Assembly: GCA_965203355.1 (NCBI GenBank)
Contig: OZ241889.1
Location: 1,760,001 to 1,824,000, forward strand
Reading direction: 5' to 3'
Length of the DNA: 64,000 nucleotides
Source: Candidatus Latescibacterota bacterium
Lineage (GTDB): Bacteria > Latescibacterota > UBA2968 > UBA8231
The position numbers were made by a program, and so were the translations under genes. The notes under the pieces are model-generated. The model was not told the DNA's origin. It did not search any database and saw only the letters and a list, made by a program, of their open reading frames with translations. This document shows, piece by piece, positions 51,901 through 64,000 of this stretch (within the stretch, counting starts at the first letter, position 1; each line of letters begins with the position of its first letter).

Positions 51901-53529
51901 TTAAAAGTCGAATACGGTTTCGAGGGTCATGACTTTGTGGCGCTGCAAGCGCCTACTGGCCGTGCGCTCAAAGAGGAAGCGAGTATCCCAGCGCACCGAG
52001 GTGCCTTCTTTCATGTTCAGTTCGATGTCAAAGCCGTAGAAGGTGTCCTTGGTCGGCTCGAAGAAATCATCTCGACCGGTGCCGTCTTCGTTGGGGTTCC
52101 GGCCGATGTTGTTCTTGTGAAAGTAAGCGTACGCACGCTTGAGACGAGGGACATACTTGAGCAGTTTGCGCGACAGGGATGCGCTGGCGATGAGCTGCTG
52201 TTTTGGGATGTCGGTGCCGGTCAGGTACTGATAGGAAACCGAGGCGTACGCGTATGAGCCGAGTTCCGTGCCCAAGTGCCCGAAGAAGCCGGAGAGCTCG
52301 TTGCTATGGCCGAGCTGCGCGTCCTTGGATTGGGCCTGTCCGGTGGCGAGGTCGAGATATGCGCGATCGAGTTCGTACAGCTCGTCGAAGTAGCGCGAGT
52401 CGAAATCGCGGCGGAAGTGGCGGAAGTCCAGTTGGCCCTTGAGCGGACCTAAAGACAGCCACAGGCCTGGGGCGGCGAGTCCGAACCCGGTCGCTTGGCG
52501 GTTGCCCGGGGAGACGCCCTGCTGTCGCGCCTCAAAGCTGGAGAGGGCGTCGTCATCGTCGATCAGCAGGGCGAATTGGCCGTAGAGTTTGAGTGCTAAG
52601 CCTAGGTTGCGGATGAGCGGGTAGGCTAGGTCTAAGCCCAAGATAGAAAAGAAGTCTTGGTCAACGTGGTTTTTGTTGAAGGGTTTCTGGCGGTCCACGT
52701 CTTGGTCCACTGGAAAGGCGTTGCCGTAATTGGCGTTGAGCCCCAACAAGGTGGAGGCGATGTCGGCGGAGAGGCCGCTGCCGGCGTCGGCGTCGATGAT
52801 GCCGTCGTTGTCATCGTCGCTGTCGATGTGGTCGGGTACGCCGTCGGCGTCGTTGTCGAGGGCGAATTGGCCGTCTTCCGGGAAGGCGTCGATGGGGTCG
52901 GGTACGCCGTCGGAATCGCTGTCGCGCAGGCCGCTATACTGGTCGAGATCGGCCACAAAGGTTACGCCCACTTCGAGGGCGGCGGCGTAGCCAAAGGTCC
53001 GCAGCCCGATGAGGGCACCGCCTTCTTGGAAGTCTTGGAGGTTGTTGATTACTCCTTCGAGTCCGATATTAGTGCCGGCTAAATTGGCGATGCGAAACTG
53101 GAGTCCGGTTTTCTTGATGCCGGGATAGTGCAGGGTGTTGCGGTAGTTGTCCATGATGAGGCCGTACCCCAACGTCACATCGCTGAGTGCGCCCATTTTG
53201 ACGTACACCGCGTCATTGGGACGGCCATAGCGCACGTAGTAAATTTTGCGCAGAATCGAGTCGAAGGTCTGGGTTGACGAACCGGCCTTCCAGCCGCGCG
53301 ACCCGAGGTCGCCGTTGCGCTCGACAAACAGCTCTAAGTCGAGGCCAATGCCCAAGCGGCCTAGGGGGAAGTCGGGCCGGAGACTGAGGCGATATAGCTG
53401 CTCTTGGTCGACAGTTACGCTGCCCATGCTGAGCGAGTAGCCGAACATGGCCACCGAGGGCTGAGCCGAAGAGACGACCGGATAGAGCGAGAGCAGCAAG
53501 ACAAAGGCGCAGTTGCCGCGAAAATTCAT
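51901..53529 (-). CDS. Hypothetical outer-membrane beta-barrel-like protein with an Asp-rich TSP3-like Ca-binding insert
   Basis: Signal peptide; TLGYGLIMDNY; DSDSDGVPD...DNDADGVPD..DSDDDNDG; ends ETVFDF. Confidence 0.65.
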   Translation of the reverse strand: MNFRGNCAFVLLLSLYPVVSSAQPSVAMFGYSLSMGSVTVDQEQLYRLSLRPDFPLGRLGIGLDLELFVERNGDLGSRGWKAGSSTQTFDSILRKIYYVRYGRPNDAVYVKMGALSDVTLGYGLIMDNYRNTLHYPGIKKTGLQFRIANLAGTNIGLEGVINNLQDFQEGGALIGLRTFGYAAALEVGVTFVADLDQYSGLRDSDSDGVPDPIDAFPEDGQFALDNDADGVPDHIDSDDDNDGIIDADAGSGLSADIASTLLGLNANYGNAFPVDQDVDRQKPFNKNHVDQDFFSILGLDLAYPLIRNLGLALKLYGQFALLIDDDDALSSFEARQQGVSPGNRQATGFGLAAPGLWLSLGPLKGQLDFRHFRRDFDSRYFDELYELDRAYLDLATGQAQSKDAQLGHSNELSGFFGHLGTELGSYAYASVSYQYLTGTDIPKQQLIASASLSRKLLKYVPRLKRAYAYFHKNNIGRNPNEDGTGRDDFFEPTKDTFYGFDIELNMKEGTSVRWDTRFLFERTASRRLQRHKVMTLETVFDF

Positions 53530-53616
53530 ACAAGGGAAGATGCGGTCGCCGGGCCGCTGGTGCAATGGCTGCGGCCGCAAACGACAACGACACAACTCAC
53601 CAGAAAGAGGTTTGCG

Positions 53617-55455
53617 ATGGGACAAACGCTAAAGGAACTGCTCGATCATAGCTTCGCAACCCATGCCGAACAGACGGCCATTCGAGAGCTCAAGCCCGTA
53701 GAAGGTAGCCGCACCTTGAGCTATCAGCCCGCGACCTATGCCGAGCTCAAAAATCGCCGCGACCGGCTGGCGGCGGGTCTTGCGGCCGAGGGCTTGGCCA
53801 AAGGTCAGCGCGTGGGCATTCTCACCGATGGCGGCAGCGAACCGCTCTTGATCTTTCTGGCGACCGACTGCATTGGGGTCAGTGCGGTGCCGCTGTGCAT
53901 CCAGTCGCCCGACGAGGTGCTCGCCCACAGCATCGCGCACTCTGCGGTCGAACTGCTGGTCGTGGACCGCAAGGGCTACGAGCGGTTTGGTGCCGTCCGC
54001 GATCGGCTGGACAAGACGCCGCGGATTGCGTTGACCGAGGGCCAAGCTGAAGACGCGATCCCTTGGCAAGGGCTAGCGGAGAGCCGCGCGGCCGTGCCCG
54101 AGGTTGAGGTGCTGCCAGAAGATGAATCGAAAATTCTCTATACCTCGGGTTCATCTGGCTTGCCCAAGGGCGTGATCCAGACCCACGCCAATATCGTCGC
54201 CAACGTCGAAGAAGTTTGGGACGTAATTAGCAAGCGCCAGCCGCTGCGCCTGTTCAAGTCGGCGCCCGACTATCACTCCATGGGCATTCTCAACATCTAC
54301 TATCCCTTGGCCAAAGGGTGGATTTTGGACTTGGCGCGCTCGCCCGACCGCGTCCTCAGCGATATTCGCCTCTCAGAGCCGGAAGGCTTTCTCACTGTGC
54401 CGCTGATACTCGACAAAGTGTACGGCAATGTGCGCAAGGAAATCGATGCTGGCGGCCTCAAGGGGCGCTTGATCCAGCGCTCGGTTGCGGCTAAGGAGCG
54501 GGCGGTGCGCGGCGAGGCCGGGCTGGTCGACACGCTCTTTTGGGCGGCCATAGGCCGTTCAATAGTCGGCAAAATTCGCGCCCAACTCGCCACGCGGGTC
54601 GGGCCTCACCTCGAACTTTTGATCGTCGGCTCAGCCAAGGCCGATCCCAAGGCGTTGGACTTCTTTCACGAAGTGCTCGATATCACCACGTACGAGGGCT
54701 ACGGCACAACCGAGTGTGCGCCGCTGATTGCCGCCAACCATCTCGACGGCCGCAAAAGCGGCACGGTGGGAAGGCCGTTGCAGGCGGTAAAAATCGTGGC
54801 TGAAGATGGGGCGGAAATCGGGTACAGCGATCCAGCACAGGACGAGTGCAGGCCCAGCGGCGAGCAGATCGGGGAGTTGTGGACCAGCGGCCCCAACGTC
54901 ATGCGCGGGTATTTGCACGACCCGGAGCAGACCGAGCAGGTGTTAGTGGAAGAAGGTGGCCAGGTCTGGTATCGGACCGGCGATTTGTTCAGCATGGACG
55001 ACGAAGGTTTCCTCTCGTTCCACGGGCGAGTTGGCCGACAGTTCAAGCTGCGCAACGGCGAGTTCGTCAATCCCGAAGCCTTGGAGCGCATTTTCGCCCG
55101 GGTATCCCTAGTCGAACATGTCGTCGTGTACGGCGACCAACAGCGCGACTATCCGCTGCCGTTGGTGACCGTGGATGTGGAGGAAGCAAAAAAGAGCGGC
55201 CTTGACGGATTGCCGCTGGAGGACGAGGCCGCGCTGCGCACGCATCCGATCTTGGGCGAGCGGATCCGCGCAGGATTTCTCGCCGAGGCCACGGCCGCTG
55301 GCCTGCCGGGCTACCAGCGGCCGCAGCGCGTCGCGCTCTTGCCCGAGCCGCTGAGCGAGGATGCCGGCACCCTGACCAAGGGCCTGAAGAAGATCGTGCC
55401 CAAGGCGATCGTCGAGCGCTATCGCACGCTCGTCGAACAGACCTACGCATCCTAG
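53617..55455 (+). CDS. Long-chain fatty acid--CoA ligase (AMP-binding)
   Basis: YTSGSSGLPKG, EGYGTTE, VMRGY, RTGD. Confidence 0.88.
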   Translation: MGQTLKELLDHSFATHAEQTAIRELKPVEGSRTLSYQPATYAELKNRRDRLAAGLAAEGLAKGQRVGILTDGGSEPLLIFLATDCIGVSAVPLCIQSPDEVLAHSIAHSAVELLVVDRKGYERFGAVRDRLDKTPRIALTEGQAEDAIPWQGLAESRAAVPEVEVLPEDESKILYTSGSSGLPKGVIQTHANIVANVEEVWDVISKRQPLRLFKSAPDYHSMGILNIYYPLAKGWILDLARSPDRVLSDIRLSEPEGFLTVPLILDKVYGNVRKEIDAGGLKGRLIQRSVAAKERAVRGEAGLVDTLFWAAIGRSIVGKIRAQLATRVGPHLELLIVGSAKADPKALDFFHEVLDITTYEGYGTTECAPLIAANHLDGRKSGTVGRPLQAVKIVAEDGAEIGYSDPAQDECRPSGEQIGELWTSGPNVMRGYLHDPEQTEQVLVEEGGQVWYRTGDLFSMDDEGFLSFHGRVGRQFKLRNGEFVNPEALERIFARVSLVEHVVVYGDQQRDYPLPLVTVDVEEAKKSGLDGLPLEDEAALRTHPILGERIRAGFLAEATAAGLPGYQRPQRVALLPEPLSEDAGTLTKGLKKIVPKAIVERYRTLVEQTYAS

Positions 55456-55657
55456 AGGCTGTCGGAAAACGCTGAGGGCTGTCGTTTGTATGTAGGCAGG
55501 CTCCCCCGCTGATTCCCGCGCAAGTGGGAATGCCCACTTGATAGCGATCTCGGCAACAATATGGACCGCTGGATTCCTGCGCATGTCGTGGCACGGGGCG
55601 ACTTCTTATGCGGGAATGCCCCACCCAATGCGCCCTAGGGGTTTCATACAGTTTCTA
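55453..55657. mobile_element. MITE-like element carrying dRS3/REP-like hairpins
   Basis: Imperfect TIRs TAGAGGCTGTCGGAAAAC / GGTTTCATACAGTTTCTA (13/18); internal ATTCCC-N8-GGGAAT at 55512-55531 and a second expanded copy at 55573-55617. Confidence 0.5.
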
Positions 55658-56656
55658 AGACGGTTTCTTTGGTTTTTGCAGGCCATGTACGCGCATGCGG
55701 GAACGCAGGCGCTCTGGCTTCATGCCCAACAAGTATGCTGCGCCTTGCATTCCATAGATCACCCAATTCGTGGTTTCGAGTGCTTCTATAAGCATTTTCT
55801 TTTCGATCTCGGCGATCTGGTCCACCTTCTCGGCGATCTGGTCCACCTTGGCTACAACTCCCTGTTCAAGCATCGTAGGTGCCTTGGCTAAGTCTTCAGT
55901 TGAGATCTGCACATCCTCCAATCGTATGGAATCACTTTGGCATATAATCACCGCCCGCTGAATCAGGTGCTCTAACTCGCGCACATTCCCCGGCCAATTA
56001 TAATCCGGTCTCTGCAAATGCATTAGTACCTCTTTGCTCAGGCGCGGCGCGGGTCGCTGTAGCTCTTGGGCAAACAGGCGCGCAAAGTGTTCTGCCAAGA
56101 CCGGTATATCCTCGCGGCGTTCCCGCAAGGGCGGAATCATTACCGGGAACACGTCCAAGCGGTAGAATAGATCTTTTCGGAATGTCCCCGCTTCAGCTGC
56201 TTGTCGTAGATCTCGGTTGGTCGCGGCAATTATGCGGACATCCACTTTGATAGATGCTTCTCCGCCGACTCGAAGCAGGCGGTGGTCTTCGAGAACGTGG
56301 AGTAGCGTCGTTTGTGCCTCTAAGGGCAAGTCGCCGATTTCATCGAAAAATAGGGTACCCTTATGCGCCTGCTCAAACCGGCCGATCCGCCGCCCTACGG
56401 CACTGGTAAAGGCCCCTTTTTCATGGCCAAACAGTTCGTCTTCGACTAGTCCGGTCGGTATAGCTCCGCAATTGACCATGACAAAGGGGTTTGCTTGACG
56501 CAGGCTAAGGGTGTGGACACGCTGGGCCAACATACCCTTGCCTACTCCAGTCTCGCCTAGTATTAGGACTGTCGTAGAAGTCTGTGCTACTAGTTGGAGT
56601 TGCTCCAAGACTTTGGTCATGGCTGGGCTTTGGCTGATTATATTCTGAGAGATCAT
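55655..56656 (-). CDS. Sigma54 enhancer-binding protein (AAA+ + Fis HTH) lacking an N-terminal sensory domain
   Basis: GETGVGK, ELFGHEKGAFTSA, FDEIG, ATNRDL, FRKDLFYRL, WPGNVREL; AAA+ starts about residue 5. Confidence 0.92.
   Translation of the reverse strand: MISQNIISQSPAMTKVLEQLQLVAQTSTTVLILGETGVGKGMLAQRVHTLSLRQANPFVMVNCGAIPTGLVEDELFGHEKGAFTSAVGRRIGRFEQAHKGTLFFDEIGDLPLEAQTTLLHVLEDHRLLRVGGEASIKVDVRIIAATNRDLRQAAEAGTFRKDLFYRLDVFPVMIPPLRERREDIPVLAEHFARLFAQELQRPAPRLSKEVLMHLQRPDYNWPGNVRELEHLIQRAVIICQSDSIRLEDVQISTEDLAKAPTMLEQGVVAKVDQIAEKVDQIAEIEKKMLIEALETTNWVIYGMQGAAYLLGMKPERLRSRMRVHGLQKPKKPS
55807..55848. repeat. In-frame 21-bp tandem duplication in the bEBP linker (KVDQIAE x2)
   Basis: TCTCGGCGATCTGGTCCACCT repeated twice exactly. 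Confidence 0.9.
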
Positions 56657-56770
56657 CTTAAAACTCGTTTAGGGCTAGGGCATGACTCGCTTGAGTAGAA
56701 TAGGAATCATAGCGAGATGGATAAATGCTTCGGAATCGTATAAATAGTTCAAAAGAAGTGTTATGTCAAT

Positions 56771-56829
56771 ATCGTATTTCAATACGATTATACCTTGTTT
56801 CAATACGATTATACCTTGTTTTAATACGA
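56771..56829. promoter_or_regulatory. Putative enhancer (UAS): palindrome plus 21-bp tandem repeats
   Basis: ATCGTATT-tc-AATACGAT palindrome (56771-56788); TTTCAATACGATTATACCTTG x2 plus a partial third copy. Confidence 0.7.
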
Positions 56830-56886
56830 CTCCGATATCCATATTAAAGTAGAAAAAAATGGAAATTATCGAAGTAAAGTCATTAT

Positions 56887-56899
56887 AAACAACAGGTTA
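56887..56899 (+). promoter_or_regulatory. IHF-like binding site
   Basis: AAACAA-CAGG-TTA vs WATCAA-N4-TTR (1 mismatch), between UAS and -24/-12. Confidence 0.55.
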
Positions 56900-56928
56900 T
56901 TAACAGAACTAATCCTAATATGACATAT

Positions 56929-56943
56929 AGGCACACTTTTTGC
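56929..56943 (+). promoter_or_regulatory. Sigma54 (-24/-12) promoter
   Basis: AGGCACACTTTTTGC: GG-N10-GC matching TGGCACG-N4-TTGC. Confidence 0.8.
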
Positions 56944-57022
56944 CTTAGTGTTAAGTAAAGTGGGAACTGATAGGCGCAGTCCTAATTCCATTTATCCAAT
57001 CCGTAACACAGGAGGATTTATT

Positions 57023-57256
57023 ATGGAAAAGCTGCACAAACCCCAGCCCGCCTATGAGCCTAACAAGGTTCAGGCATACAATAATGAAAGGGGCCGTTGG
57101 ACGGATACTGGAGACGATATCCTCGATCTTCCCAATGGCTGCCGGAAATACATTCCGATGGAAATGTGTACGATCGTTTGGAACCCTAACAAAAACTGTG
57201 CTTCTATCGGAACGAAACGAGCGGATCCCGGAAGGGCCACTCGCACGGAATGCTAG
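57023..57256 (+). CDS. 77-aa four-Cys peptide, putative RiPP-like precursor
   Basis: Strong RBS AGGAGG; first gene after the sigma54 promoter; Cys40/49/59/77; followed by stem-loops. Confidence 0.75.
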   Translation: MEKLHKPQPAYEPNKVQAYNNERGRWTDTGDDILDLPNGCRKYIPMEMCTIVWNPNKNCASIGTKRADPGRATRTEC

Positions 57257-57276
57257 TACTGCCGAGGACGCGACTC

Positions 57277-57383
57277 TTTCGTTGCTAAGAGGTTTTGACC
57301 TCTTGAGTTGGCGAAAGCCCTATTTTGTTCCCACGTTTGACCCAATGAGTAGCAATTCGGCGTATACCGAATTGCTACTCATT
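57277..57383 (+). terminator. Two stem-loops after the precursor gene
   Basis: Hairpin 57277-57316 (core AAGAGGT-tttg-ACCTCTT); perfect 17-bp stem AATGAGTAGCAATTCGG-cgtata-CCGAATTGCTACTCATT at 57344-57383. Confidence 0.7.
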
Positions 57384-57427
57384 AGCGTTCTGACCATTTT
57401 GCATTGCTTGTGAAATTGGGGTCATAC

Positions 57428-58705
57428 ATGCAGCGATTTTTTAGTTTTCCTCTGAGTGGGCTAATAGCCGGTCTCGTGCTCATCGGCGAGGCCGGAAGTC
57501 AAGAGAACGTTTTATTTTGGCCAGCCAATCTGAAACACATTCCCAAACGATCCGTAGTCCAAGATGACCGTCGCCTGCACCTAAGGCTCGAAAAGGTTAT
57601 CCGCTTAAAGTTGGATGAACATACACCTGTCCTAGATAGTGTACTCAAAGGACAGTGGGCTCTAGGGGATAGTACCTTCTTTTTTATTTCCGGTGCGCTC
57701 TATGAATTCGACCAGACTGGTACCTATGTCCGTACCATCGGGCGGCGAGGTAAGGGACCTGGCGAATACCAAAATCCCACTCATGTCTCCGTAGATGCCG
57801 AGGGCCGTATTTACGTGGTAGCAGACCCCTTTCTCCTCCATGTATATGATAGAACAGGTCGTCATCTACATACTTATAAGGATCAGGCGGTCCGTCGTCT
57901 TTTCTTTGATACACAGGGAAACTTGGTGCAGTTGATAGAAGATTGGTTTGAAGCGCCGTCCGCTTGGAAAGATCGGTTCGCTCGGTTTATACCCGGGGTG
58001 AGGCATTCGCCTATATTTGTGGGGTTGACCAAGAGGAATCGGCAGGGGAAGCCTTTGTATCGGCTGGCTATCTCTACAGATGAGACCGTGGATGTCTTGT
58101 CCTATATGTTATCAAGGATTAGTCTCTGTTACAGTGAAACCAAGGATCGACTCTACTACGTGGAGCCGTGGGACTATAAAATCAAGGTGATTGATGCCCA
58201 TCGTGGACAGATCGTCGAACAATTTGGCCCCGAGCCGGAGTACTATCACAGCATGAGACGGGAAGTTGACTTTCCCATTTACGAGCCCCGTGATTCCGAC
58301 GAACTCTATGAGGCTAAGTTTAATGCATCGTTTACAGAGGAATTGCACCTGCTGGACGAGAAATATGTTCTGTATGTGTATCGCCCAGGCAAATCTGCCC
58401 TTGAGGGAGTTTTCGGGACGAAAAGGAAAGAGGTACGTGGGGGGGTTTGTCTGGCCTATGATATTAGCTCTGGAGACACCATCCGAGTTTTCCAGATGAT
58501 GAAGGAATCTCTTGACGACTGGCGATTGTATCATCCTGATTCCGAAGAAAGAGGGGGAATAAATACGGGTGGAACCAGAAGAGGAAGCTCTCCTACGAAT
58601 GTGATTGCTAGAGGGGAGTACTTGTACATTTATAAACCACCTCCAGAAAACATAATGGAGACTTCGAATGGCCGCGTCGAGGTTTTTACTGTCTCTGTTG
58701 AATGA
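57428..58705 (+). CDS. Exported 6-bladed beta-propeller (NHL-like) protein
   Basis: Signal-like N-terminus; FDQTGTYVRTIGRRGKGPGEYQNP motif; YDRTGRHL. Confidence 0.8.
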   Translation: MQRFFSFPLSGLIAGLVLIGEAGSQENVLFWPANLKHIPKRSVVQDDRRLHLRLEKVIRLKLDEHTPVLDSVLKGQWALGDSTFFFISGALYEFDQTGTYVRTIGRRGKGPGEYQNPTHVSVDAEGRIYVVADPFLLHVYDRTGRHLHTYKDQAVRRLFFDTQGNLVQLIEDWFEAPSAWKDRFARFIPGVRHSPIFVGLTKRNRQGKPLYRLAISTDETVDVLSYMLSRISLCYSETKDRLYYVEPWDYKIKVIDAHRGQIVEQFGPEPEYYHSMRREVDFPIYEPRDSDELYEAKFNASFTEELHLLDEKYVLYVYRPGKSALEGVFGTKRKEVRGGVCLAYDISSGDTIRVFQMMKESLDDWRLYHPDSEERGGINTGGTRRGSSPTNVIARGEYLYIYKPPPENIMETSNGRVEVFTVSVE

Positions 58706-58811
58706 GAAATATTCATACGAGTATAGTATGTTCACGAGAAGGGGCGAAGCACACAGCTTTCAAGTCGTGTAGGATTGCTATATAACTAAACTGTAACGAT
58801 AGAGTAACAAG

Positions 58812-59537
58812 ATGAAAGATTTTATAAAGATAAGTTCCCTAGTCGCCAATCTTTTGCTAGTGATCTTGCTGGGAATTTCTTTTGCTTGGATATATAAAGC
58901 AGAATATAGATTGTCCCACAGTTCGGGTCAATTGGCGACAGAACGCACTAGATTATATGAAGAATTTATAATTGCAACCATGATGGCAGACCGTCTTTTG
59001 GGATTGCCATTCCCTCGACTTGCTCTGGTCGATGTCTATAACAAGAATATATCAACTGATTTCTCACAAAAAGAGGGTGCCTTAATTCTCGTATTCGATC
59101 CTCAAACCTGTCAACCTTGCTTAATAGCTCAACTCAAGTTGTTGAATCATGTTTACAAACAACTTAAAAATCCAGATACATTTCCAGTCATTGCAATTGC
59201 CCCTCGCTATCACTCTCAGTTGATAAAACGATATGCTTTGAAATACGAATTGCAATATACAATAATAGCTGATAAAAAAGATCAAATCTTCAATGATAAC
59301 AATGAAGTACTTTACAAAGCAACTCCTGCCGTATATTTAGTTAATCAGAACAACACTATAATACGAAGCCATATTCCCGTATTTAGGAAACCTTATATTT
59401 CTGTTCTATTTTTTTATGAGGTACAAAATCTAATACCTCTTTCGGAGCCTATTTTTTCCTATATAGAACCTTTATTACTTATTGATGTTGTGAAAGGTGA
59501 TTTTGATCTTGAACCTATCGAGTACTTCCTCTATTGA
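58812..59537 (+). CDS. Membrane-anchored thioredoxin-fold/redoxin protein
   Basis: N-terminal TM; FP...L.D; CQPC (CxxC); cis-Pro motif TPAVYLVN. Confidence 0.75.
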   Translation: MKDFIKISSLVANLLLVILLGISFAWIYKAEYRLSHSSGQLATERTRLYEEFIIATMMADRLLGLPFPRLALVDVYNKNISTDFSQKEGALILVFDPQTCQPCLIAQLKLLNHVYKQLKNPDTFPVIAIAPRYHSQLIKRYALKYELQYTIIADKKDQIFNDNNEVLYKATPAVYLVNQNNTIIRSHIPVFRKPYISVLFFYEVQNLIPLSEPIFSYIEPLLLIDVVKGDFDLEPIEYFLY

Positions 59538-59550
59538 TTTAGAGTCTCTA

Positions 59551-61293
59551 ATGATCTATATAAACAAAAAAACAGCGAGTCGTTTTTTAGCTTTTATCAG
59601 ACCTTATTGGTTTCTACAAAGTGTAGCCTTTATTCTTGCTATATTAAGTACGGCTAGTTTATTAGTCTCTCCTTATATAACAAAGATCATAATAGATGAA
59701 GTACTTCCCAATAGAGACTTATTTTTTCTCAATATAATGCTGGTCATCCTTGTGGGCAGTATTCTCTTTCAATTGGTCATCTCATTTTTTGGCGAATATA
59801 TTTATGCTTGGATTAGTAATAATATCACTTTGGACATGCAGCAGACTCTTTTTCGTCATATGCTGAATTTCTCTTTAACCTTTTATAATCAAAATAAGAA
59901 AGGAGATATTATATATAGGATCGAAGAAGATATAGAAAATATTCAAGATTTTCTTATTACGGGTATAGTCAGGTTTATACATGATGTATTGAAAATAACA
60001 TTTATCATAATCATGCTTTGCTGGCTAAGTTTTGAGTTTTTTTTATGTTCAATCAGTATTATTCCTTTATACATCATTAGTTTGATTTATTTTAGACCGA
60101 AAATAAAAAATATTACAGAGCGTGTCCGTGAAAAACAATCTGATATATTTTCCTTTTTAGTAGAGAGATTCCACAATATTCAACTAATTCAGACGTATAA
60201 CACATACACATACGAGAGTAAAAAATTACGCAAAAATCAGACTGAATTGGTAAACCTGAGTATGAAAAGCACTGTCTATTCCGCTGCAGCGAGTACCGTT
60301 GTGAATAGCATTGTGGGTTTAACGCCAGTGTTTTTCTTAGGCTGGGGCGGTTATCAAATCATAGAAGGAAATCTAACCCTGGGAACTCTAATCGCCTTCA
60401 TGCAATACCTGTCGTTTCTATTTTCTCCAATTAATGACCTAAACAGTCTTTATTTTCAAGCTGTACGAGCATCGGTGTCCATGAATCACTTGATGGAATT
60501 TCTGGAACTGCCTACTCAGCTCAATCTAAATGGTATTGGTGCCGGCTCTGCTTCTTTCTCTTTTGAACGGAAAATAGTGTTTAACGGTATCCATTTTTCC
60601 TACGATGGAGAATCAGTTTTACAAGACTTGAATATGGAACTTATAAAAGGAAAAAAATATGCTATAGTAGGTGCTAGTGGTTGTGGCAAGACTACTCTGG
60701 TCTATCTTTTATGTAGGTTCTATCAGCCTAGTAGGGGAGCTATCTTTATAGATGACACGAACCTTGAAAATATAAATCTTTTTGATATGAGAAAACACGT
60801 TGGATTGGTGACACAAAATAATCAAGTCTTCAACGATACAGTATGGGACAATATACAATATGGAAACATAGAAAGCACTCTCAGCGAAGTTGAGATAGCA
60901 GCTAAGACACTGGATTTGGATAATTATACAGATCGAGATAATCCTGTATTCACCAGATATATTGGTGAGCAAGGAGCACAATTATCTGGTGGTCAAAGAC
61001 AGCGAGTTGCTATTGCTCGAGCTGTACTAAAGGATATAGAAATTATGATCCTGGATGAAGCAACTTCGGCATTAGATTCCAAAGGTGAGCAGATAATTTT
61101 TGCCAAACTAAAAAAGCTGTATAAAGATAAAACCATAATCCTAATTAGCCACCGACTAGCCACGGTCCAAAATGCGGATGAAATCATTTGCTTAGAAAAA
61201 GGAAGAATTGTAGAACAGGGAAACCATGGCGATCTTCTGCGAAAAAAGAGATATTATTGGCAACTCTTTAAAGATCAACTGGAGGAACGTTGA
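59551..61293 (+). CDS. ABC exporter (fused TMD + ATPase), no C39 peptidase domain
   Basis: Six TM segments; GASGCGKTT; LSGGQRQR; ILDEATSALD; ISHRL; very low GC. Confidence 0.93.
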   Translation: MIYINKKTASRFLAFIRPYWFLQSVAFILAILSTASLLVSPYITKIIIDEVLPNRDLFFLNIMLVILVGSILFQLVISFFGEYIYAWISNNITLDMQQTLFRHMLNFSLTFYNQNKKGDIIYRIEEDIENIQDFLITGIVRFIHDVLKITFIIIMLCWLSFEFFLCSISIIPLYIISLIYFRPKIKNITERVREKQSDIFSFLVERFHNIQLIQTYNTYTYESKKLRKNQTELVNLSMKSTVYSAAASTVVNSIVGLTPVFFLGWGGYQIIEGNLTLGTLIAFMQYLSFLFSPINDLNSLYFQAVRASVSMNHLMEFLELPTQLNLNGIGAGSASFSFERKIVFNGIHFSYDGESVLQDLNMELIKGKKYAIVGASGCGKTTLVYLLCRFYQPSRGAIFIDDTNLENINLFDMRKHVGLVTQNNQVFNDTVWDNIQYGNIESTLSEVEIAAKTLDLDNYTDRDNPVFTRYIGEQGAQLSGGQRQRVAIARAVLKDIEIMILDEATSALDSKGEQIIFAKLKKLYKDKTIILISHRLATVQNADEIICLEKGRIVEQGNHGDLLRKKRYYWQLFKDQLEER

Positions 61294-61296
61294 GGG

Positions 61297-61436
61297 CGAA
61301 TATTCTGCACACCCGACCAAGGCCAAGGTCGCCCCTCATTGATGGCGTACCGCTTGCGGATATTCAACTGCGTGAAGTGAGAGCGCCCATCGGCTTGGTC
61401 TCTCAGCAAGTGCATCTGTTCGGGCCCTGGAGTTGA
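61297..61436 (+). pseudogene. Frameshifted fragment of a second ABC-exporter ATPase (Q-loop region)
   Basis: 61338-61436 reads IDGVPLADIQLREVRAPIGLVSQQVHLF; upstream in another frame RIFCTPDQGQ resembles RFYxPxxG. Confidence 0.65.
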
Positions 61437-61440
61437 CCGT

Positions 61441-61908
61441 ATGAAGCAACGGCTGTTTATCACCGGCCTTGTGCTCTGGGCCGGGGTGCTGGCGGGAAGC
61501 GTGTACGCCCTCTGGTCTTATGCAGATCGCTTGCTGTCCGGTGTGCCGCTGGGCGGCTTTGAAGATGCGGCTGTTCACCGACTCAATCCGCTGGAGGCTA
61601 AGCGGAGTTTCGACCGTGGCGCGGCCGTTTTTGTCGATGTGCGATCGGCTTTTGCTTACGAGGCCGGGCACATCCTCGGTGCCTTGCACCTACCTTCCCA
61701 TGTTTCTACGGCTCACTTACGCGAAGTGCTGGCGTCTTATCCGGCGGATATCCGAGTTATCACCTACTGTTCGGGCGGCGGTTGCCAGAGCAGTCGTACG
61801 CTGGCGAAGCGACTCGTCGAAGAGTCCGTCCGCGATGAAGTCTATGTCCTGACCGGCGGCTGGCCCGCTTGGCAAGCGGCCGGGGTGGGCGAGGAGGCTG
61901 GCTCGTGA
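61441..61908 (+). CDS. Membrane-anchored rhodanese-like protein
   Basis: N-terminal TM; FVDVRS..Y..GHILGA; YCSGGGC; LTGGWPAW. Confidence 0.85.
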   Translation: MKQRLFITGLVLWAGVLAGSVYALWSYADRLLSGVPLGGFEDAAVHRLNPLEAKRSFDRGAAVFVDVRSAFAYEAGHILGALHLPSHVSTAHLREVLASYPADIRVITYCSGGGCQSSRTLAKRLVEESVRDEVYVLTGGWPAWQAAGVGEEAGS

Positions 61909-63851
61909 GCTTTCCTTTTGCGGACCAGACCGGCCGTGGCGTCAAGGTCGCAGTAGTCGATAGCGGCATCGTCCCCGATCACCCCAAGGTAGGGCCCGTG
62001 GCTGGCGGGGTTGGGCTTGCTATGGGGCCAGACGGCACCATCCGCTATAGCGACGACCACGTTGATGGCGCCGGGCATGGCACGGCCTGCGCTGGCATCA
62101 TTCGCCGCAAAGCACCGGAGGCCGAGCTATACAGTGTGCGCATCTTCGACGAGTCGCTCCAAGCCGATAGCCGCTTGCTGATTGCGGCCATTGAATGGGC
62201 CTTGGCTCAAGGCATGGACCTTATCAACCTGAGCTTGGGCACGACGGAGGTGACATACCGCGACGCTTTGGAACGGATGTGTCGGCAGGCTGCTGACCAA
62301 GGCGTCCTGTTGATAGCTGCCGAGCATGAAGAAGGCCGGGAGAGCTATCCAGCCCATTTGCCCCCAGTCATTGGCGTGGGCGCGGGCAAAGTGCGAGGTC
62401 TCTATGCGTATCACTATCGCCGAGGGGAGACCATTGAGTGTATTGCTCGGGGTGACTCCCAACGCCTATGCTGGCTGGAGCCGCCTGAGATTATGACGGC
62501 TGGCACCAGCTTTGCCGCGCCTCACCTGACCGGCTTAGTCGCTCTAATCCGCGAGGCGCATCCCAAGGCCGACTTGGAATCAGTGCGTCAACTCCTGCAC
62601 CTTCACGCCCCTCCTACTGCTCGCTCCGTGCCCAAATCCATTGTCCCATCCGAGGCCGAGGAGTCATTCGCTTGGATCCAGAAAGCCGCGCTCTATCCCT
62701 ACAACAAGGAAATGCACGCCCTAATGCGCGGGCGCGATCTGCTCGGCTTTGAGATCGTTGGCATCGGTGATCCCATCGGCAAGGGCCTGACCGGCCAAGA
62801 CGCCGGTCAGGCCCTTGGCCTACCCCCGGTGGGCTTTCAAGTTGCGCCGCGATTGGCTGTGGCCCTGCAAGGGGCTGATACCCTCATTTTGGGATATGTA
62901 GATGAACTGGGTCGCATCCGCAAAAAGGACGTTTTGCGCGAAGCCGTGCAACTGGCACTGGATCAAGGCGTTCACGTCTTCAGCCTGCTGGCCCTGCCCC
63001 GCGAGGGCTACGCCGATTTGTACGAACAGGCCGCGGCCAAGGGCCTGCGCCTGTACTATCCGGCGTTGTCGGCCAAAGACGCGCAGCAGACCCTCGCCTC
63101 GGCCGGGGAGTATCCCCAAGTGGATGTGCCAGTTGTGGCGGTCTTGGGTACCAGTTCACAGCAGGGCAAGTTCACGCTGCAACTGGCCTTGCGTCGCCGC
63201 CTGCTGGAACGGGGCTACCGAGTCGGACAACTCGGCACCGAGCACCACGCCGCGCTGTTCGGCATGGACTGCGCTTTCCCGATGGGCTACGCCGCATCCA
63301 TCGAGATGCCCCTGGATTATTACGCTCCCTACTTAGACGCCAAGATGCGCCAAATCAATCAACGCAAGTGCCCGCATATAATCTTGGTCGGCAGCCAATC
63401 GGGCACCGTGCCGTACAACGTAAGCGAACCCACAACCCACACTCTGTCCACCGTCGCCTTCCTAATGGGGGTCAAGCCAGACGCCTGCCTACTGGTGGTC
63501 AACAGTATAGATACCGACGACTACATTCAGGACACCATAGACGGCATCCGAGCGATGTGCCACGCACCGACCCTGCTGTTGGCCATGAGCGATAAGGAAA
63601 AGCACGTGCGGGAGGCGTATGGGCGCACCGCTATAAAACCCCGACCCATGCGCACAGAAGACCGCCGCCGCAAGTTGCGCCACTTGGAACAGACGTTTAA
63701 GCGGCCGGCCCTATCCATCGCCTCCCAAGCCGATGTCCACAAGGCTGTCGAGGTGGTGATTGACTATTTCGCCGAGAACGAGAATAAGGTACTTGGTAAC
63801 GAAGGGGTCTCAGGTGTGAAACACCCTCGCGCCAGGGCGGTGGCTGGATAG
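61905..63851 (+). CDS. S8 subtilisin-like peptidase fused to a DUF1611 (DgcN-like P-loop) domain
   Basis: GTGA overlap; triad VVDSG, GHGTACAG, GTSFAAPH; C-terminal VAVLGTSSQQGKFT P-loop and VGSQSG; no signal peptide. Confidence 0.8.
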   Translation: MSFPFADQTGRGVKVAVVDSGIVPDHPKVGPVAGGVGLAMGPDGTIRYSDDHVDGAGHGTACAGIIRRKAPEAELYSVRIFDESLQADSRLLIAAIEWALAQGMDLINLSLGTTEVTYRDALERMCRQAADQGVLLIAAEHEEGRESYPAHLPPVIGVGAGKVRGLYAYHYRRGETIECIARGDSQRLCWLEPPEIMTAGTSFAAPHLTGLVALIREAHPKADLESVRQLLHLHAPPTARSVPKSIVPSEAEESFAWIQKAALYPYNKEMHALMRGRDLLGFEIVGIGDPIGKGLTGQDAGQALGLPPVGFQVAPRLAVALQGADTLILGYVDELGRIRKKDVLREAVQLALDQGVHVFSLLALPREGYADLYEQAAAKGLRLYYPALSAKDAQQTLASAGEYPQVDVPVVAVLGTSSQQGKFTLQLALRRRLLERGYRVGQLGTEHHAALFGMDCAFPMGYAASIEMPLDYYAPYLDAKMRQINQRKCPHIILVGSQSGTVPYNVSEPTTHTLSTVAFLMGVKPDACLLVVNSIDTDDYIQDTIDGIRAMCHAPTLLLAMSDKEKHVREAYGRTAIKPRPMRTEDRRRKLRHLEQTFKRPALSIASQADVHKAVEVVIDYFAENENKVLGNEGVSGVKHPRARAVAG

Positions 63852-63913
63852 GGCTTCTGGGCTATTTATCTGGGGAACGGATGATGCCCATTTGGGGTAG
63901 GGCACTGGGCGGG

Positions 63914-63936
63914 ATTCCTGCTTTCGCGGAAATGAC
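63914..63936. repeat. dRS3/REP-like palindromic repeat
   Basis: ATTCCTGCTTTCGCGGAAATGAC, a variant of ATTCCC-N8-GGGAAT also seen at 55512. Confidence 0.6.
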
Positions 63937-64000
63937 GACAGAGAGCGGTAGAAAGTCGCCGAGGAAAACGACTGCTTATCACCAGTGAGGAAAACAGAAT

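What the first reader, a model, noticed from the sequence alone, without database searches (positions are those of the whole stretch)
61905..63851. Subtilisin fused to a DUF1611/DgcN-like P-loop domain: possible cut-and-modify enzyme
A compact cytoplasmic S8 domain with intact D/H/S triad and no pro-domain or signal resembles small leader-cleaving subtilisins such as QhpE. It is joined to a domain with GTSSQQGKFT. DUF1611 includes the D-glutamate N-acetyltransferase DgcN, and from memory related proteins occur in Firmicute peptide-maturation clusters (TIGR04066-like; needs verification). Inference: it removes the leader and acylates or otherwise modifies the new N-terminus.
Basis: partly seen in the sequence, partly recalled or inferred. 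Interest (0 to 1): 0.75.

Follow-up and report, generated by a model that had tools for sequence, protein, structure and literature searches.

The report
Leader protease fused to carrier-linked enzyme
This gene joins a cytoplasmic subtilisin-type protease to a DUF1611 nucleotide-binding enzyme module and appears to be the core processing enzyme of a widespread, unstudied gene cluster that makes and exports small ribosomal peptides.

Summary
Window 61905-63851 (+) encodes a 648-aa protein with no signal peptide or pro-domain. It has an S8 subtilase half with an intact Asp19/His58/Ser202 triad. The best family model for that half is QhpE, just under its cut-off. A linker joins it to a DUF1611 two-domain module (Rossmann-like plus P-loop, GTSSQQGKFT) that scores as TIGR04066-like, also under cut-off. 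An AlphaFold model of the C-half matches the DUF1611 structures 2G0T, 2OBN and DgcN (7XRJ).

The fusion is the usual form of a large family: 134 of the top 150 cluster representatives are fused, and 82 of 167 genomes of the phylum carry it. It sits in a conserved peptide-maturation cluster. Upstream in the window lie a sigma-54-type promoter and a 77-aa, 4-Cys precursor. Its leader motif (M..L.KP…AY, invariant Tyr19) recurs beside the fusion in four phyla. An ABC exporter, redoxin, propeller and rhodanese follow. In orthologs an acyl-carrier protein follows the fusion directly, and the window ends on the first two bases of its start codon.

"Acylate the new N-terminus" is plausible but unproven; loading the carrier with ATP is a serious rival. 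The scan had noted this family twice before on other DNA. It is uncharacterised and moderately interesting.

The parts
55655..56656 (-). Sigma-54-dependent transcriptional activator (bEBP). The AAA+ domain starts at residue 6, so there is no N-terminal sensor domain. It is divergent from the peptide operon.
   Evidence: Pfam Sigma54_activat 1.4e-66, AAA_lid_14, HTH_8. A homolog with 39% identity lies at the head of the L002 cluster.
56769..56831 (.). Three tandem 21-nt direct repeats, possibly the activator's binding sites (inference).
   Evidence: the repeat finder family D1, identities 100/86/76%. They lie about 100-160 nt upstream of the -24/-12 element.
56930..56943 (+). Sigma-54-type -24/-12 promoter-like element, GGCAC-N5-TTGC.
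   Evidence: One search found 2 matches in 64 kb where 0.94 are expected by chance, so the motif alone is not significant. What counts is its position, 80 nt upstream of the precursor ATG and next to a sigma-54 activator gene.
57023..57256 (+). Precursor peptide of 77 aa. The leader is MEKLHKPQPAYEPNKVQAY (Tyr19 invariant). The core is 58 aa with 4 Cys.
   Evidence: AGGAGG lies 6-11 nt upstream of the ATG. The leader motif was found on the + strand beside fused homologs and never on a minus strand below E about 4. No NCBIfam model matches it.
57404..58705 (+). Secreted 6-bladed beta-propeller (DUF5128/NHL-like).
   Evidence: Pfam DUF5128 9.3e-11. The N-terminus is hydrophobic. Homologs sit in the same position in L001-L003, G139, G134 and G143 but share only 21-33% identity.
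58812..59537 (+). Membrane-anchored thiol-disulfide oxidoreductase (AhpC/TSA, ResA-like).
   Evidence: Pfam AhpC-TSA 2.3e-07; NCBIfam ResA 5e-07. Conserved position in L001-3, L012, L088, G134 and G143. GC 0.35.
59497..61293 (+). ABC exporter (MsbA/HlyB type) without a C39 peptidase domain.
   Evidence: Pfam ABC_membrane 1.4e-44 and ABC_tran 1.9e-32. An ABC exporter accompanies the fusion in 17 of 30 sources. GC 0.35.
61278..61421 (+). High-GC relic of an older ABC-exporter gene (a fragment of the nucleotide-binding domain).
   Evidence: tblastn gives 56% identity to residues 377-426 of the L001 exporter.
61441..61908 (+). Membrane-anchored rhodanese. Its stop overlaps the fusion's start.
   Evidence: Pfam Rhodanese 1.1e-17. 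Orthologs share 46-78% identity in L001-3, G134 and G143. GTGA overlap.
61905..62609 (+). S8 subtilase half of the fusion: Asp19 (61959-61961), His58, Asn108, Ser202. No signal peptide and no pro-domain.
62682..63770 (+). DUF1611/TIGR04066-like half of the fusion: YPYNKEMH motif, Rossmann-like domain, and P-loop domain with Walker A GTSSQQGKFT (63147-63176).
63999..64000 (+). First two bases (AT) of the start codon of the carrier-protein (ACP) gene. This is inferred from synteny; the gene itself lies beyond the window.
   Evidence: Window 63978-64000 is 23/23 identical to the stretch that ends in the AT of the ACP's ATG in the 86%-identical ortholog locus G001:C223. An ACP also follows the fusion in G139, G134 and G143.

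Best explanation
The gene encodes a cytoplasmic, two-part maturation enzyme of a ribosomal-peptide (RiPP-like) pathway.

Step 1 (inferred from context). The QhpE-like subtilase half removes the 19-residue leader of the precursor encoded at 57023-57256. It cuts after the invariant Tyr of the leader motif M-x-x-L-x-K-P...(V/L)-x-(A/L)-Y.

Step 2 (inferred). The DUF1611/TIGR04066-like half works with the dedicated carrier protein whose gene begins at the window's last two bases. It handles a phosphopantetheine thioester. The simplest version, by analogy with DgcN (the one characterised DUF1611 enzyme), is transfer of an acyl or aminoacyl group from the carrier to the amine freed by the cut.

Step 3 (inferred). 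The ABC exporter moves the peptide out of the cytoplasm. There the membrane-anchored redoxin, the rhodanese and the beta-propeller act on its four cysteines.

Shown here: architecture, catalytic motifs, fold, family size, conserved neighbourhood and the shared leader motif. Not shown: any cleavage, any acyl group, any product.
For: Architecture and motifs.

Fold. The C-half matches only DUF1611 structures strongly, including 7xrj, titled 'N-acetyltransferase DgcN'.

The fusion is the rule in this family. 134 of the top 150 representatives are at least 550 aa. Of ten sampled, 7 of 7 long ones carry both halves.

Shared leader. A leader with invariant Tyr lies beside the fusion on the same strand in the window, L001-L006, L008 (three copies), L010, L015, L016, L082 and L092/93. 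It also occurs in regions G139, G143 and G134. The motif accompanies both Cys-rich cores and the Cys-free cores of L004-L006. It therefore tracks the fusion, not the radical SAM enzyme. P4 is hydrophobic and P1 is Tyr, the classic subtilisin preference (recalled).

Carrier protein. It was found in 21 of 30 sources with a fused gene, mostly overlapping or within about 70 nt of the fusion. It was found in 0 of 64 loci that hold a stand-alone S8 relative. Its Ser is present in all 14 aligned members.

Orthologs at 86-89% identity have the order fusion, ACP, BtrH-like, MFP, RND. The window's end matches the ACP's ribosome-binding site and the first two bases of its start codon.

A Paenibacillus cluster in print has TIGR04066, TIGR04069 (ACP-related), a TIGR04068 rSAM and a separate subtilase gene, with a 19-aa leader predicted by its authors (PMC10731318; passages and section 3.2 read).
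Against: - No biochemistry exists for any member.
- The DgcN model scores 18 bits against a cut-off of 480, and TIGR04066 scores 108 against 200. Homology to the acetyltransferase is at fold level only (TM 0.53-0.61).
- Many clusters already encode a BtrH_N/DUF4872 protein. That family's founding member is an ACP-dependent N-acyltransferase (recalled). A second transferase would be redundant, while no ACP-loading enzyme is visible.
- The Walker A Lys is invariant. This suggests nucleotide triphosphate use, which thioester-to-amine transfer does not need.
- Three loci with enough flank (L086, L089, L090) lack the ACP.
- In this window neither the ACP gene body, a radical SAM gene nor a BtrH-like gene is visible. 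The ACP is inferred from synteny.
Confidence: 0.45

Rival explanations
1. The protease role is the same, but the DUF1611 half is the ATP-dependent loader of the carrier protein. It would activate a carboxylate (an amino acid or a small or fatty acid) as an acyl phosphate and put it on holo-ACP, like BtrJ on BtrI in butirosin synthesis (recalled). The BtrH-like enzyme, where present, would then pass it to the peptide.
For: The Walker A motif is invariant in all 37 aligned members. No other candidate loader is seen in the clusters, whereas a BtrH_N/DUF4872 protein follows the ACP in L001, L002, L082, L084, G001:C223, G139 and G134. A weaker BtrH_N-like protein occurs in L004, L006, L016 and G143. 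Weak fold echoes of succinyl-/citryl-CoA synthetases and Mur ligases, which use acyl-phosphate chemistry, appear after the DUF1611 hits at E about 1e-5 and TM 0.2-0.3.
Against: DgcN, the only characterised DUF1611 enzyme, is described as an acetyl-CoA-dependent transferase, not a ligase (recalled; the PDB title appears). In the Firmicute-type loci L014, L015 and L092/93 no BtrH-like ORF was picked up, so a transferase would be missing there. The fold echoes are too weak to carry weight.
Confidence: 0.25
2. The DUF1611 half is not a chemical catalyst. It would be a leader-binding or nucleotide-gated regulatory module that positions or licenses the protease, and the ACP-like protein would be a structural partner.
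For: RiPP proteases often need a recognition module (general knowledge). The leader motif tracks the fusion rather than any tailoring enzyme. The interdomain linker is disordered in the model (residues 239-252, pLDDT below 50).
Against: About two dozen residues of the C-half are invariant across phyla: 24 in alignment A3. They include the whole P-loop, the Lys, Glu and His of the YPYNKEMH motif, and several Asp, Glu and Gln. The carrier's Ser is present in 14 of 14 members. That degree of conservation fits catalysis and phosphopantetheinylation.
Confidence: 0.12
3. Peptidyl-carrier route. The DUF1611 half would activate a carboxylate of the peptide itself and tether it to the ACP. Leader removal would then free the amine that resolves the thioester, giving head-to-tail cyclisation or transfer to another acceptor.
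For: The minimal clusters hold only a precursor, rSAM, ACP, fusion and ABC exporters (L015, L016, L092/93). They show no source of an external acyl group. Fusing a protease that makes an amine to a P-loop module fits coupled chemistry.
Against: The core C-termini show no conserved feature. There is no precedent for DUF1611 acting on peptides. This is pure inference.
Confidence: 0.08
4. The gene is unrelated to the neighbouring peptide. It would be a housekeeping protease joined to a DgcN-like D-glutamate N-acetyltransferase (for example for cell-wall peptide recycling), or an immunity or ATPase protein as guessed for 23sacE in PMC10731318.
For: DgcN is the only named DUF1611 enzyme. The immunity guess is in print.
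Against: DgcN scores 18 bits against a cut-off of 480. The neighbourhood with precursor, ACP and exporter is conserved across Latescibacterota, KSB1, Ignavibacteria-type, Myxococcota and Firmicutes loci. Genomes hold up to 7 matches, which is typical of diversifying peptide loci rather than housekeeping genes.
Confidence: 0.03

Closest known systems
TIGR04066 'peptide maturation system protein' of the CLI_3235 / CcpM-type Cys-rich peptide clusters of Firmicutes (TIGR04065 precursor, TIGR04068 rSAM, TIGR04069 ACP-related protein)
   Same: The C-half aligns end to end with the model (residues 272-634 on model positions 2-359 of 361). A small carrier protein sits next door. Precursors are Cys-rich. 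A subtilase is part of the system (PMC10731318). ABC export is present.
   Different: The score is 108 bits against a cut-off of 200, and all 10 sampled relatives also fall below it, so this is a sister clade. The subtilase is fused here rather than a separate gene. This window and its closest relatives have no radical SAM gene within about 15 kb. Instead they carry redoxin, rhodanese, propeller, BtrH-like and RND genes. TIGR04066 itself has no known function.
QhpE, the subtilisin-like leader peptidase of quinohemoprotein amine dehydrogenase maturation
   Same: It is the best-scoring S8 model (151 bits). It is a compact cytoplasmic S8 without pro-domain or signal. The pathway logic is parallel: a peptide with cysteines, a cytoplasmic S8 cut, then an ABC exporter (QhpE biology recalled). 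The rSAM enzymes of related loci score on the QhpD model (228 bits for L002).
   Different: The score is below the 165-bit cut-off. No DUF1611 half or ACP is known for QhpE (recalled). No amine dehydrogenase genes were seen in the part of the window I annotated. The 64 stand-alone S8 relatives lack the DUF1611 and ACP genes.
DUF1611 proteins: TM0796 (2G0T), Ava_3511 (2OBN) and the D-glutamate N-acetyltransferase DgcN (7XRJ)
   Same: Same two-domain fold (Foldseek E 6e-16 to 2e-12, TMt 0.61-0.70). Both Pfam DUF1611 models score above cut-off. The Walker A motif is shared (2g0t alignment).
   Different: Sequence identity is 16-18%. The DgcN model scores 18 bits against a cut-off of 480. Those proteins are stand-alone, about 340 aa, with no protease or ACP partner known to me. 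The YPYNKEMH motif lies outside the Pfam DUF1611_N match.
Butirosin BtrI (ACP) / BtrJ (ATP-dependent loader) / BtrH (ACP-to-amine acyltransferase) logic
   Same: A dedicated small ACP is followed by a BtrH_N/DUF4872 protein in many clusters (51.8 bits against a cut-off of 29.7).
   Different: The acceptor would be a ribosomal peptide, not an aminoglycoside. No ATP-grasp loader is present. The butirosin chemistry is recalled, not tested.
S8 leader peptidases of other RiPPs (LanP of class I lanthipeptides; PatA/PatG of cyanobactins)
   Same: A subtilase dedicated to a precursor peptide. There is a weak PatA/PatG model hit (34.6 bits).
   Different: These have other domain partners (recalled: LanP is often secreted with a pro-domain; PatG carries a macrocyclase insert). 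None is fused to DUF1611.

Membership tests
Peptidase S8 (subtilases) | Pfam PF00082 score above its gathering cut-off | tested here: met
   92.9 bits against a cut-off of 21.8. PDB profile hits to subtilisin BPN' at E 8e-44.
Peptidase S8 (subtilases) | Asp-His-Ser triad in that order, plus the oxyanion Asn | tested here: met
   D19, H58 and S202 are invariant, and N108 is conserved in at least 90% of 37 sequences.
QhpE (NF049966) | Score at or above the curated 165-bit cut-off | tested here: not met
   151 bits.
QhpE (NF049966) | Sits in a qhp operon with the amine dehydrogenase subunits and the QhpD radical SAM enzyme | tested here: not met
   No radical SAM homolog anywhere in the 64-kb window by tblastn with three rSAM queries. 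None of the neighbours annotated is a dehydrogenase subunit. Dehydrogenase models were not searched directly.
DUF1611 (PF07755 + PF17396) | Both Pfam domains above their gathering cut-offs | tested here: met
   45.5 bits against 25, and 23.4 bits against 22.6, which is marginal.
DUF1611 (PF07755 + PF17396) | Two-domain fold of 2G0T/2OBN | tested here: met
   Foldseek E 6e-16 and 2e-13, TMt 0.70, about 385-415 aligned columns. phmmer hit to 2g0t at E 6.7e-05.
DgcN (NF041892) | Score at or above the 480-bit cut-off | tested here: not met
   18.4 bits.
DgcN (NF041892) | Acetyl-CoA-dependent N-acetylation of D-glutamate | not testable with these tools
   Needs an enzyme assay.
TIGR04066 peptide maturation system protein | Score at or above the 200-bit cut-off | tested here: not met
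   108.2 bits over the full model length. Ten sampled relatives score 72-148 bits.
TIGR04066 peptide maturation system protein | Neighbouring ACP-related protein | tested here: inconclusive
   The gene body is not inside the window. It is present in 21 of 30 sources and in all four orthologous regions examined. The window ends on the conserved RBS and the 'AT' of the start codon. Only L092's carrier touches the TIGR04069 model, at 17.7 bits against a cut-off of 70.
TIGR04066 peptide maturation system protein | Neighbouring TIGR04068 (CcpM) radical SAM maturase | tested here: not met
   None in the window or in the G139, G134, G143 and G001:C223 regions. The rSAM/SPASM genes present in L002, L010 and L015 score best on other models; CcpM gets 95-159 bits against a cut-off of 500.
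TIGR04066 peptide maturation system protein | Small Cys-rich precursor (TIGR04065, CLI_3235 family) | tested here: inconclusive
   A 77-aa, 4-Cys precursor is present. However, no NCBIfam model, TIGR04065 included, matched any of the 7 precursors tested at E <= 1.
RiPP biosynthetic cluster (generic) | Precursor with a conserved leader and variable core, next to a peptidase and an exporter | tested here: met
   Leader alignment with M1 and Y19 invariant, L4 and K6 at least 90% conserved, and cores that cannot be aligned. S8 and ABC genes lie in the same gene string.

The most novel reading that the evidence does not exclude
This may be a carrier-protein-dependent class of ribosomal peptides. 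One bifunctional enzyme would couple leader removal to ATP-driven thioester chemistry on a dedicated ACP. A ribosomal peptide, or a building block destined for its new N-terminus, would then be handled like an NRPS/FAS intermediate. The outcome could be N-terminal extension, lipidation or head-to-tail cyclisation. The family is large, with 792 cluster representatives at E <= 1e-30, and it spans Cys-rich and Cys-free cores. It would therefore be a general maturation platform rather than one compound's pathway.
Probability: 0.3. Interest if true: 0.85.

Novelty: new variant of a known kind. Interest (0 to 1): 0.6.

Why it matters
The family is large. The 50%-identity library holds 2175 representatives at E <= 1e-3. 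It is present in 82 of 167 genomes of a barely cultivated phylum, with up to 7 matches per genome.

Neither half-partner (TIGR04066/DUF1611 in peptide clusters, or the ACP-related protein) has a known role. Six literature searches found only two mining papers that list the TIGR models, plus one guess of 'immunity'.

The fusion is a natural Rosetta stone. It ties the unknown DUF1611 module to leader cleavage. The shared leader motif gives a concrete substrate and a predicted cut site. That makes the function of DUF1611 in peptide maturation directly testable with three or four genes in E. coli. If the ACP really feeds a ribosomal peptide, this would be a new route to hybrid peptide natural products.

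Tried and rejected
1. Complex prediction of the whole fusion (alignment A2) with residues 1-45 of the precursor (alignment A4). Result: no verdict (score 0.21, mark 0.32). It counts neither for nor against binding.

2. Own genome. None is held, so the region downstream of the window could not be read directly. I used orthologous regions instead.

3. The metagenome scan with the single protein found nothing closer than 70% identity.

4. NCBIfam on 7 precursors and on the 214-aa 'fam8' protein gave no family. Pfam on fam8 gave none either. The protein atlas only tied fam8 to a domain that is fused to BtrH_N proteins in Bacillota.

5. The in-frame 'TGA' and 'TAG' flags in the phylum search looked like possible selenocysteine or read-through variants. 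tblastn over residues 1-622 of three of them shows no internal stop, so these are natural stop codons read through by the tool. Rejected.

6. The AMP-binding gene at 53404-55455 was considered as the ACP loader. A homolog lies 6 kb from the L082 fusion, but none appears in the G139, G134 or G143 regions. It is probably unrelated.

7. I considered whether the low-GC block marks a chimeric assembly. The same gene order with a milder GC dip occurs in L003 and G143, and an ABC relic marks a replacement. Cassette exchange is more likely than misassembly, but this is not proven.

8. Searches on 'DgcN' did not reach the primary paper. DgcN biochemistry is therefore recalled.

9. I did not search for stand-alone 'shorter' forms with the word-index tool. 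One search covers that question.
Full report
**What is in the sequence**

Window 61905-63851 (+) is one intact ORF of 648 codons. It starts at a GTG, with GAGGAGG 8-14 nt upstream. The start overlaps the stop of the preceding rhodanese gene as GTGA. The public protein collection holds the identical 648-aa product (P0001).

Pfam places a Peptidase_S8 domain at the very N-terminus (E 2.9e-26). After a gap it places both DUF1611 domains: DUF1611_N at 23.4 bits against a cut-off of 22.6, and the P-loop domain at 45.5 bits against 25. NCBIfam ranks the QhpE model first for the N-half (151 bits, cut-off 165). It ranks TIGR04066 first for the C-half (108 bits, cut-off 200, full model length). DgcN reaches only 18 bits against 480.

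In a 37-sequence alignment reaching down to 27% identity, Asp19, His58 and Ser202 are invariant. So are G415, T416, Q420, G421, K422 and F423 of GTSSQQGKFT. Asp19 lies 19 residues from the start, so there is neither signal peptide nor pro-domain.

AlphaFold models are confident. The whole protein has pLDDT 87.0, with a disordered linker at residues 239-252. The C-half has pLDDT 87.7 and pTM 0.85. Foldseek against the PDB gives subtilisin BPN' at about 1e-16 for the N-half. For the C-half it gives only DUF1611 structures as strong hits: 2g0t at 6e-16, 2obn at 2e-13 and 7xrj 'N-acetyltransferase DgcN' at 2e-12, with TMt 0.61-0.70. Everything after these is weak. By sequence, 2g0t is the only solved relative (E 6.7e-05).

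**How common the fusion is**

- A word-index search returned 856 proteins at E <= 0.001 among the 8000 candidates scored. All 120 listed carry both PF00082 and PF07755.
- A profile of the C-half alone, run against 1.84 billion cluster representatives, found 2175 at E <= 1e-3 and 792 at E <= 1e-30.
- Of the 150 best, 134 are at least 550 aa with the match starting near residue 190-360, so they are fused. The other 16 are shorter.
- Of ten sampled, 7 of 7 long ones score on both the QhpE and TIGR04066 models, and 3 of 3 short ones score on TIGR04066 only. All are below the 200-bit cut-off.
- In the phylum of the nearest genome, 82 of 167 genomes have a match at E <= 1e-60, with up to 7 matches per genome. 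Record titles name this phylum Candidatus Latescibacterota.
- The MAG that holds L001 has four paralogous loci. The window's own 4.17-Mb contig holds a 73%-identical paralog (P0027).
- Full-length fusions also occur in KSB1, Rosettibacter primus, Minicystis rosea and gut Firmicutes.

**Neighbourhood**

I called ORFs in 29 loci with a fused gene plus the window and clustered them.

In the window the gene string is:
- a sigma-54 activator on the opposite strand (55655-56656);
- three 21-nt repeats;
- a GGCAC-N5-TTGC element (not significant on its own);
- a small ORF (57023-57256);
- a secreted 6-bladed propeller;
- a membrane-anchored redoxin;
- an ABC exporter;
- a relic of another ABC gene;
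- a membrane-anchored rhodanese;
- the fusion.

The order propeller, redoxin, ABC, rhodanese, fusion recurs in L001-L003. It also recurs in the three closest complete genomes: G139 at 89%, G134 at 88% and G143 at 87% identity.

Downstream, the window stops 149 nt after the fusion. In the 86%-identical ortholog (G001:C223) the fusion is followed by an ACP, a 225-aa protein of no family ('fam8'), a BtrH_N/DUF4872 protein, an MFP and an RND pump. G139, G134 and G143 show the same order, apart from fam8, which was not picked up there. The window's last 23 bases are identical to the ortholog's ribosome-binding site and the 'AT' of the ACP start codon. The ACP gene therefore almost certainly begins at window position 63999. 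This is inference from synteny.

**The carrier protein is the tightest partner**

I built an HMM from 14 neighbouring ACP-like ORFs. It found such a gene in 21 of the 30 sources, and 7 of those were not used to build it. The gene mostly overlaps or lies within about 70 nt of the fusion. In L014-16 and L092/93 it lies just upstream, and in L008 it lies 4 kb away.

The misses are:
- L005, L011, L012 and L091, whose contigs end at the fusion;
- L088, where the fusion is cut;
- the window;
- L086, L089 and L090, which have enough flank and still lack it.

As a control, 64 loci with a stand-alone S8 relative (L017-L080) contain neither a DUF1611-like gene nor this ACP. The phosphopantetheine-site Ser is present in all 14 aligned ACPs: DS in 11, NS in 2 and SS in 1.

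Radical SAM/SPASM maturases are present in only some loci: L002, L007, L010, L014-16 and L092/93. They are absent from the window (tblastn) and from the four closest regions.

**Precursors**

The small ORF at 57023 has AGGAGG 6-11 nt upstream of its ATG. It encodes MEKLHKPQPAYEPNKVQAY followed by a 58-residue core with 4 Cys.

- A regular expression derived from four such ORFs found four more. All 8 were on the fusion's strand and none on the opposite strand.
- HMMs then added two further copies in L008 and precursors in L001, L002 and L003.
- Weaker hits (E 0.003-3.5) turned up in L082, L092/93, G139 and G143. One in G134 was seen by eye.
- Noise in these searches starts at about E 2.6.
- In the 15-sequence alignment only Met1 and Tyr19 are invariant, and Leu4 and Lys6 are nearly so. 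The cores do not align.

The motif accompanies Cys-rich cores (window, L001-3, L008, L010, L015/16, L082, L092) and also the Cys-free cores of L004-L006. It therefore tracks the fusion, not the rSAM. Hydrophobic P4 with Tyr at P1 is the textbook subtilisin preference, and subtilisin BPN' cuts its own pro-peptide after ...AHAY (both recalled). No NCBIfam model matches these peptides.

The one cluster of this kind described in print is Paenibacillus SacP23 (PMC10731318; passages and section 3.2 read). It has a 61-aa CLI_3235-family precursor, for which its authors predict a 19-aa leader. It also has a TIGR04068 rSAM, a TIGR04066 protein, a TIGR04069 ACP-related protein and a separate subtilase. 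The authors guess 'immunity' for the TIGR04066 protein.

**Mechanism**

Best-supported reading, confidence 0.45: the S8 half is the leader peptidase, cutting after Tyr19. The DUF1611 half acts with the ACP on a thioester. In the simplest version it moves an acyl or aminoacyl group to the new amine, as DgcN moves acetyl from acetyl-CoA to D-Glu (recalled).

Main rival, 0.25: the DUF1611 half is the ATP-dependent loader of the ACP, and the BtrH-like enzyme does the transfer. Three points favour this:
- the invariant Walker A lysine;
- the lack of any other loader in the clusters;
- the BtrH-like gene in many clusters, which would make a second transferase redundant.

Lesser rivals:
- a non-catalytic recognition or gating module (0.12);
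- a peptidyl-ACP route to cyclisation (0.08);
- an unrelated housekeeping or immunity role (0.03).

No step has been tested biochemically by anyone, as far as six literature searches show.

**Comparison and novelty**

The protein works like a QhpE-type or LanP-type leader peptidase. It belongs to the S8 and DUF1611 superfamilies. It fails the curated cut-offs of QhpE, TIGR04066 and DgcN, so it should be filed as a sister clade: 'S8-fused TIGR04066-like'. The fusion, the shared leader motif, the Cys-free members, and the redoxin/rhodanese/propeller and BtrH-like/RND additions are not described in the papers I could search.

Two earlier notes of this scan, on other genomes (e1-1430769 and e1-2131188), reached the same general reading: protease-DUF1611 enzyme, carrier partner, Cys-rich peptides. 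I reached mine before seeing them, and I tested those points here.

**Caveats**

- ORFs in the loci were called by a simple longest-ORF rule, so small genes can be missed or starts misplaced.
- The ACP in the window is inferred.
- The leader HMMs were built from the hits they then score best.
- The count of 21 of 30 includes truncated loci in the denominator.
- DgcN, butirosin, QhpE and subtilisin facts not tied to a call are recalled.
- Supplements of the papers were not available.

Noticed in passing
window 56500-61300, against 61300-64000: The precursor, propeller, redoxin and ABC block has GC 0.35-0.48 in a genome of GC 0.60-0.62. Its proteins share only 21-48% identity with those of relatives whose fusion and rhodanese share 46-89%. 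The upstream module behaves as a hypervariable, exchangeable cassette. L003 and G143 show a milder dip.
   Followed up: partly
window 61278-61421: A 48-codon, high-GC relic of an ABC nucleotide-binding domain lies directly after the intact low-GC ABC gene. It shares 56% identity with residues 377-426 of the L001 exporter. It is probably the scar of a cassette replacement.
   Followed up: partly
window 55655-56943: The sigma-54 activator has no N-terminal sensor or receiver domain (the AAA+ domain starts at residue 6). It faces three 21-nt tandem repeats (56769-56831) and a GGCAC-N5-TTGC element 80 nt upstream of the precursor ATG. This suggests sigma-54 control of a peptide operon. The L002 cluster also begins with a homologous activator.
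   Followed up: partly
window 61441-61908: The rhodanese has an N-terminal membrane helix and an active-site loop with two cysteines (YCSGGGC). Its best NCBIfam hit is a 'rhodanese-related (seleno)protein' model, at 43.8 bits against a cut-off of 115. Together with the redoxin it hints at persulfide or disulfide chemistry on the exported peptide.
   Followed up: no
window 53404-55455: A 683-aa AMP-binding (acyl-activating) enzyme lies just upstream of the cluster. A homolog lies 6 kb downstream of the fusion in L082, followed there by a second ACP-like ORF. None appears in the G139, G134 or G143 regions, so the link is doubtful.
   Followed up: partly
L001 8018-8662; L082 10099-10737; L084 2253-2852; L101 (reverse strand) 2700-3377: A roughly 200-225-aa protein with no Pfam or NCBIfam match always sits between the ACP and the BtrH-like gene. 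The protein atlas shows the same fold fused to BtrH_N/Peptidase_C39_2 proteins in Bacillota (TM 0.78).
   Followed up: partly
L004 7206-9984, L005, L006 7324-9865: Some clusters have long, Cys-free, acidic precursors (127-144 aa) with the same leader. Instead of an rSAM they carry TPR, CAAX/Rce1-like, weak GNAT or TPR-C39-like genes. The leader and fusion platform therefore serves chemically different peptides.
   Followed up: partly
L008 3097-4415: Three tandem precursor genes have near-identical leaders and hydrophobic, Cys-containing cores ending in GYI.
   Followed up: no
L101 (G001:C223), reverse strand about 2260-2370: The intergenic spacer between the fusion and the ACP holds two copies of a roughly 20-nt element (GGGAGGCCTGCACACAAGGG) that the window's shorter spacer lacks.
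   Followed up: no
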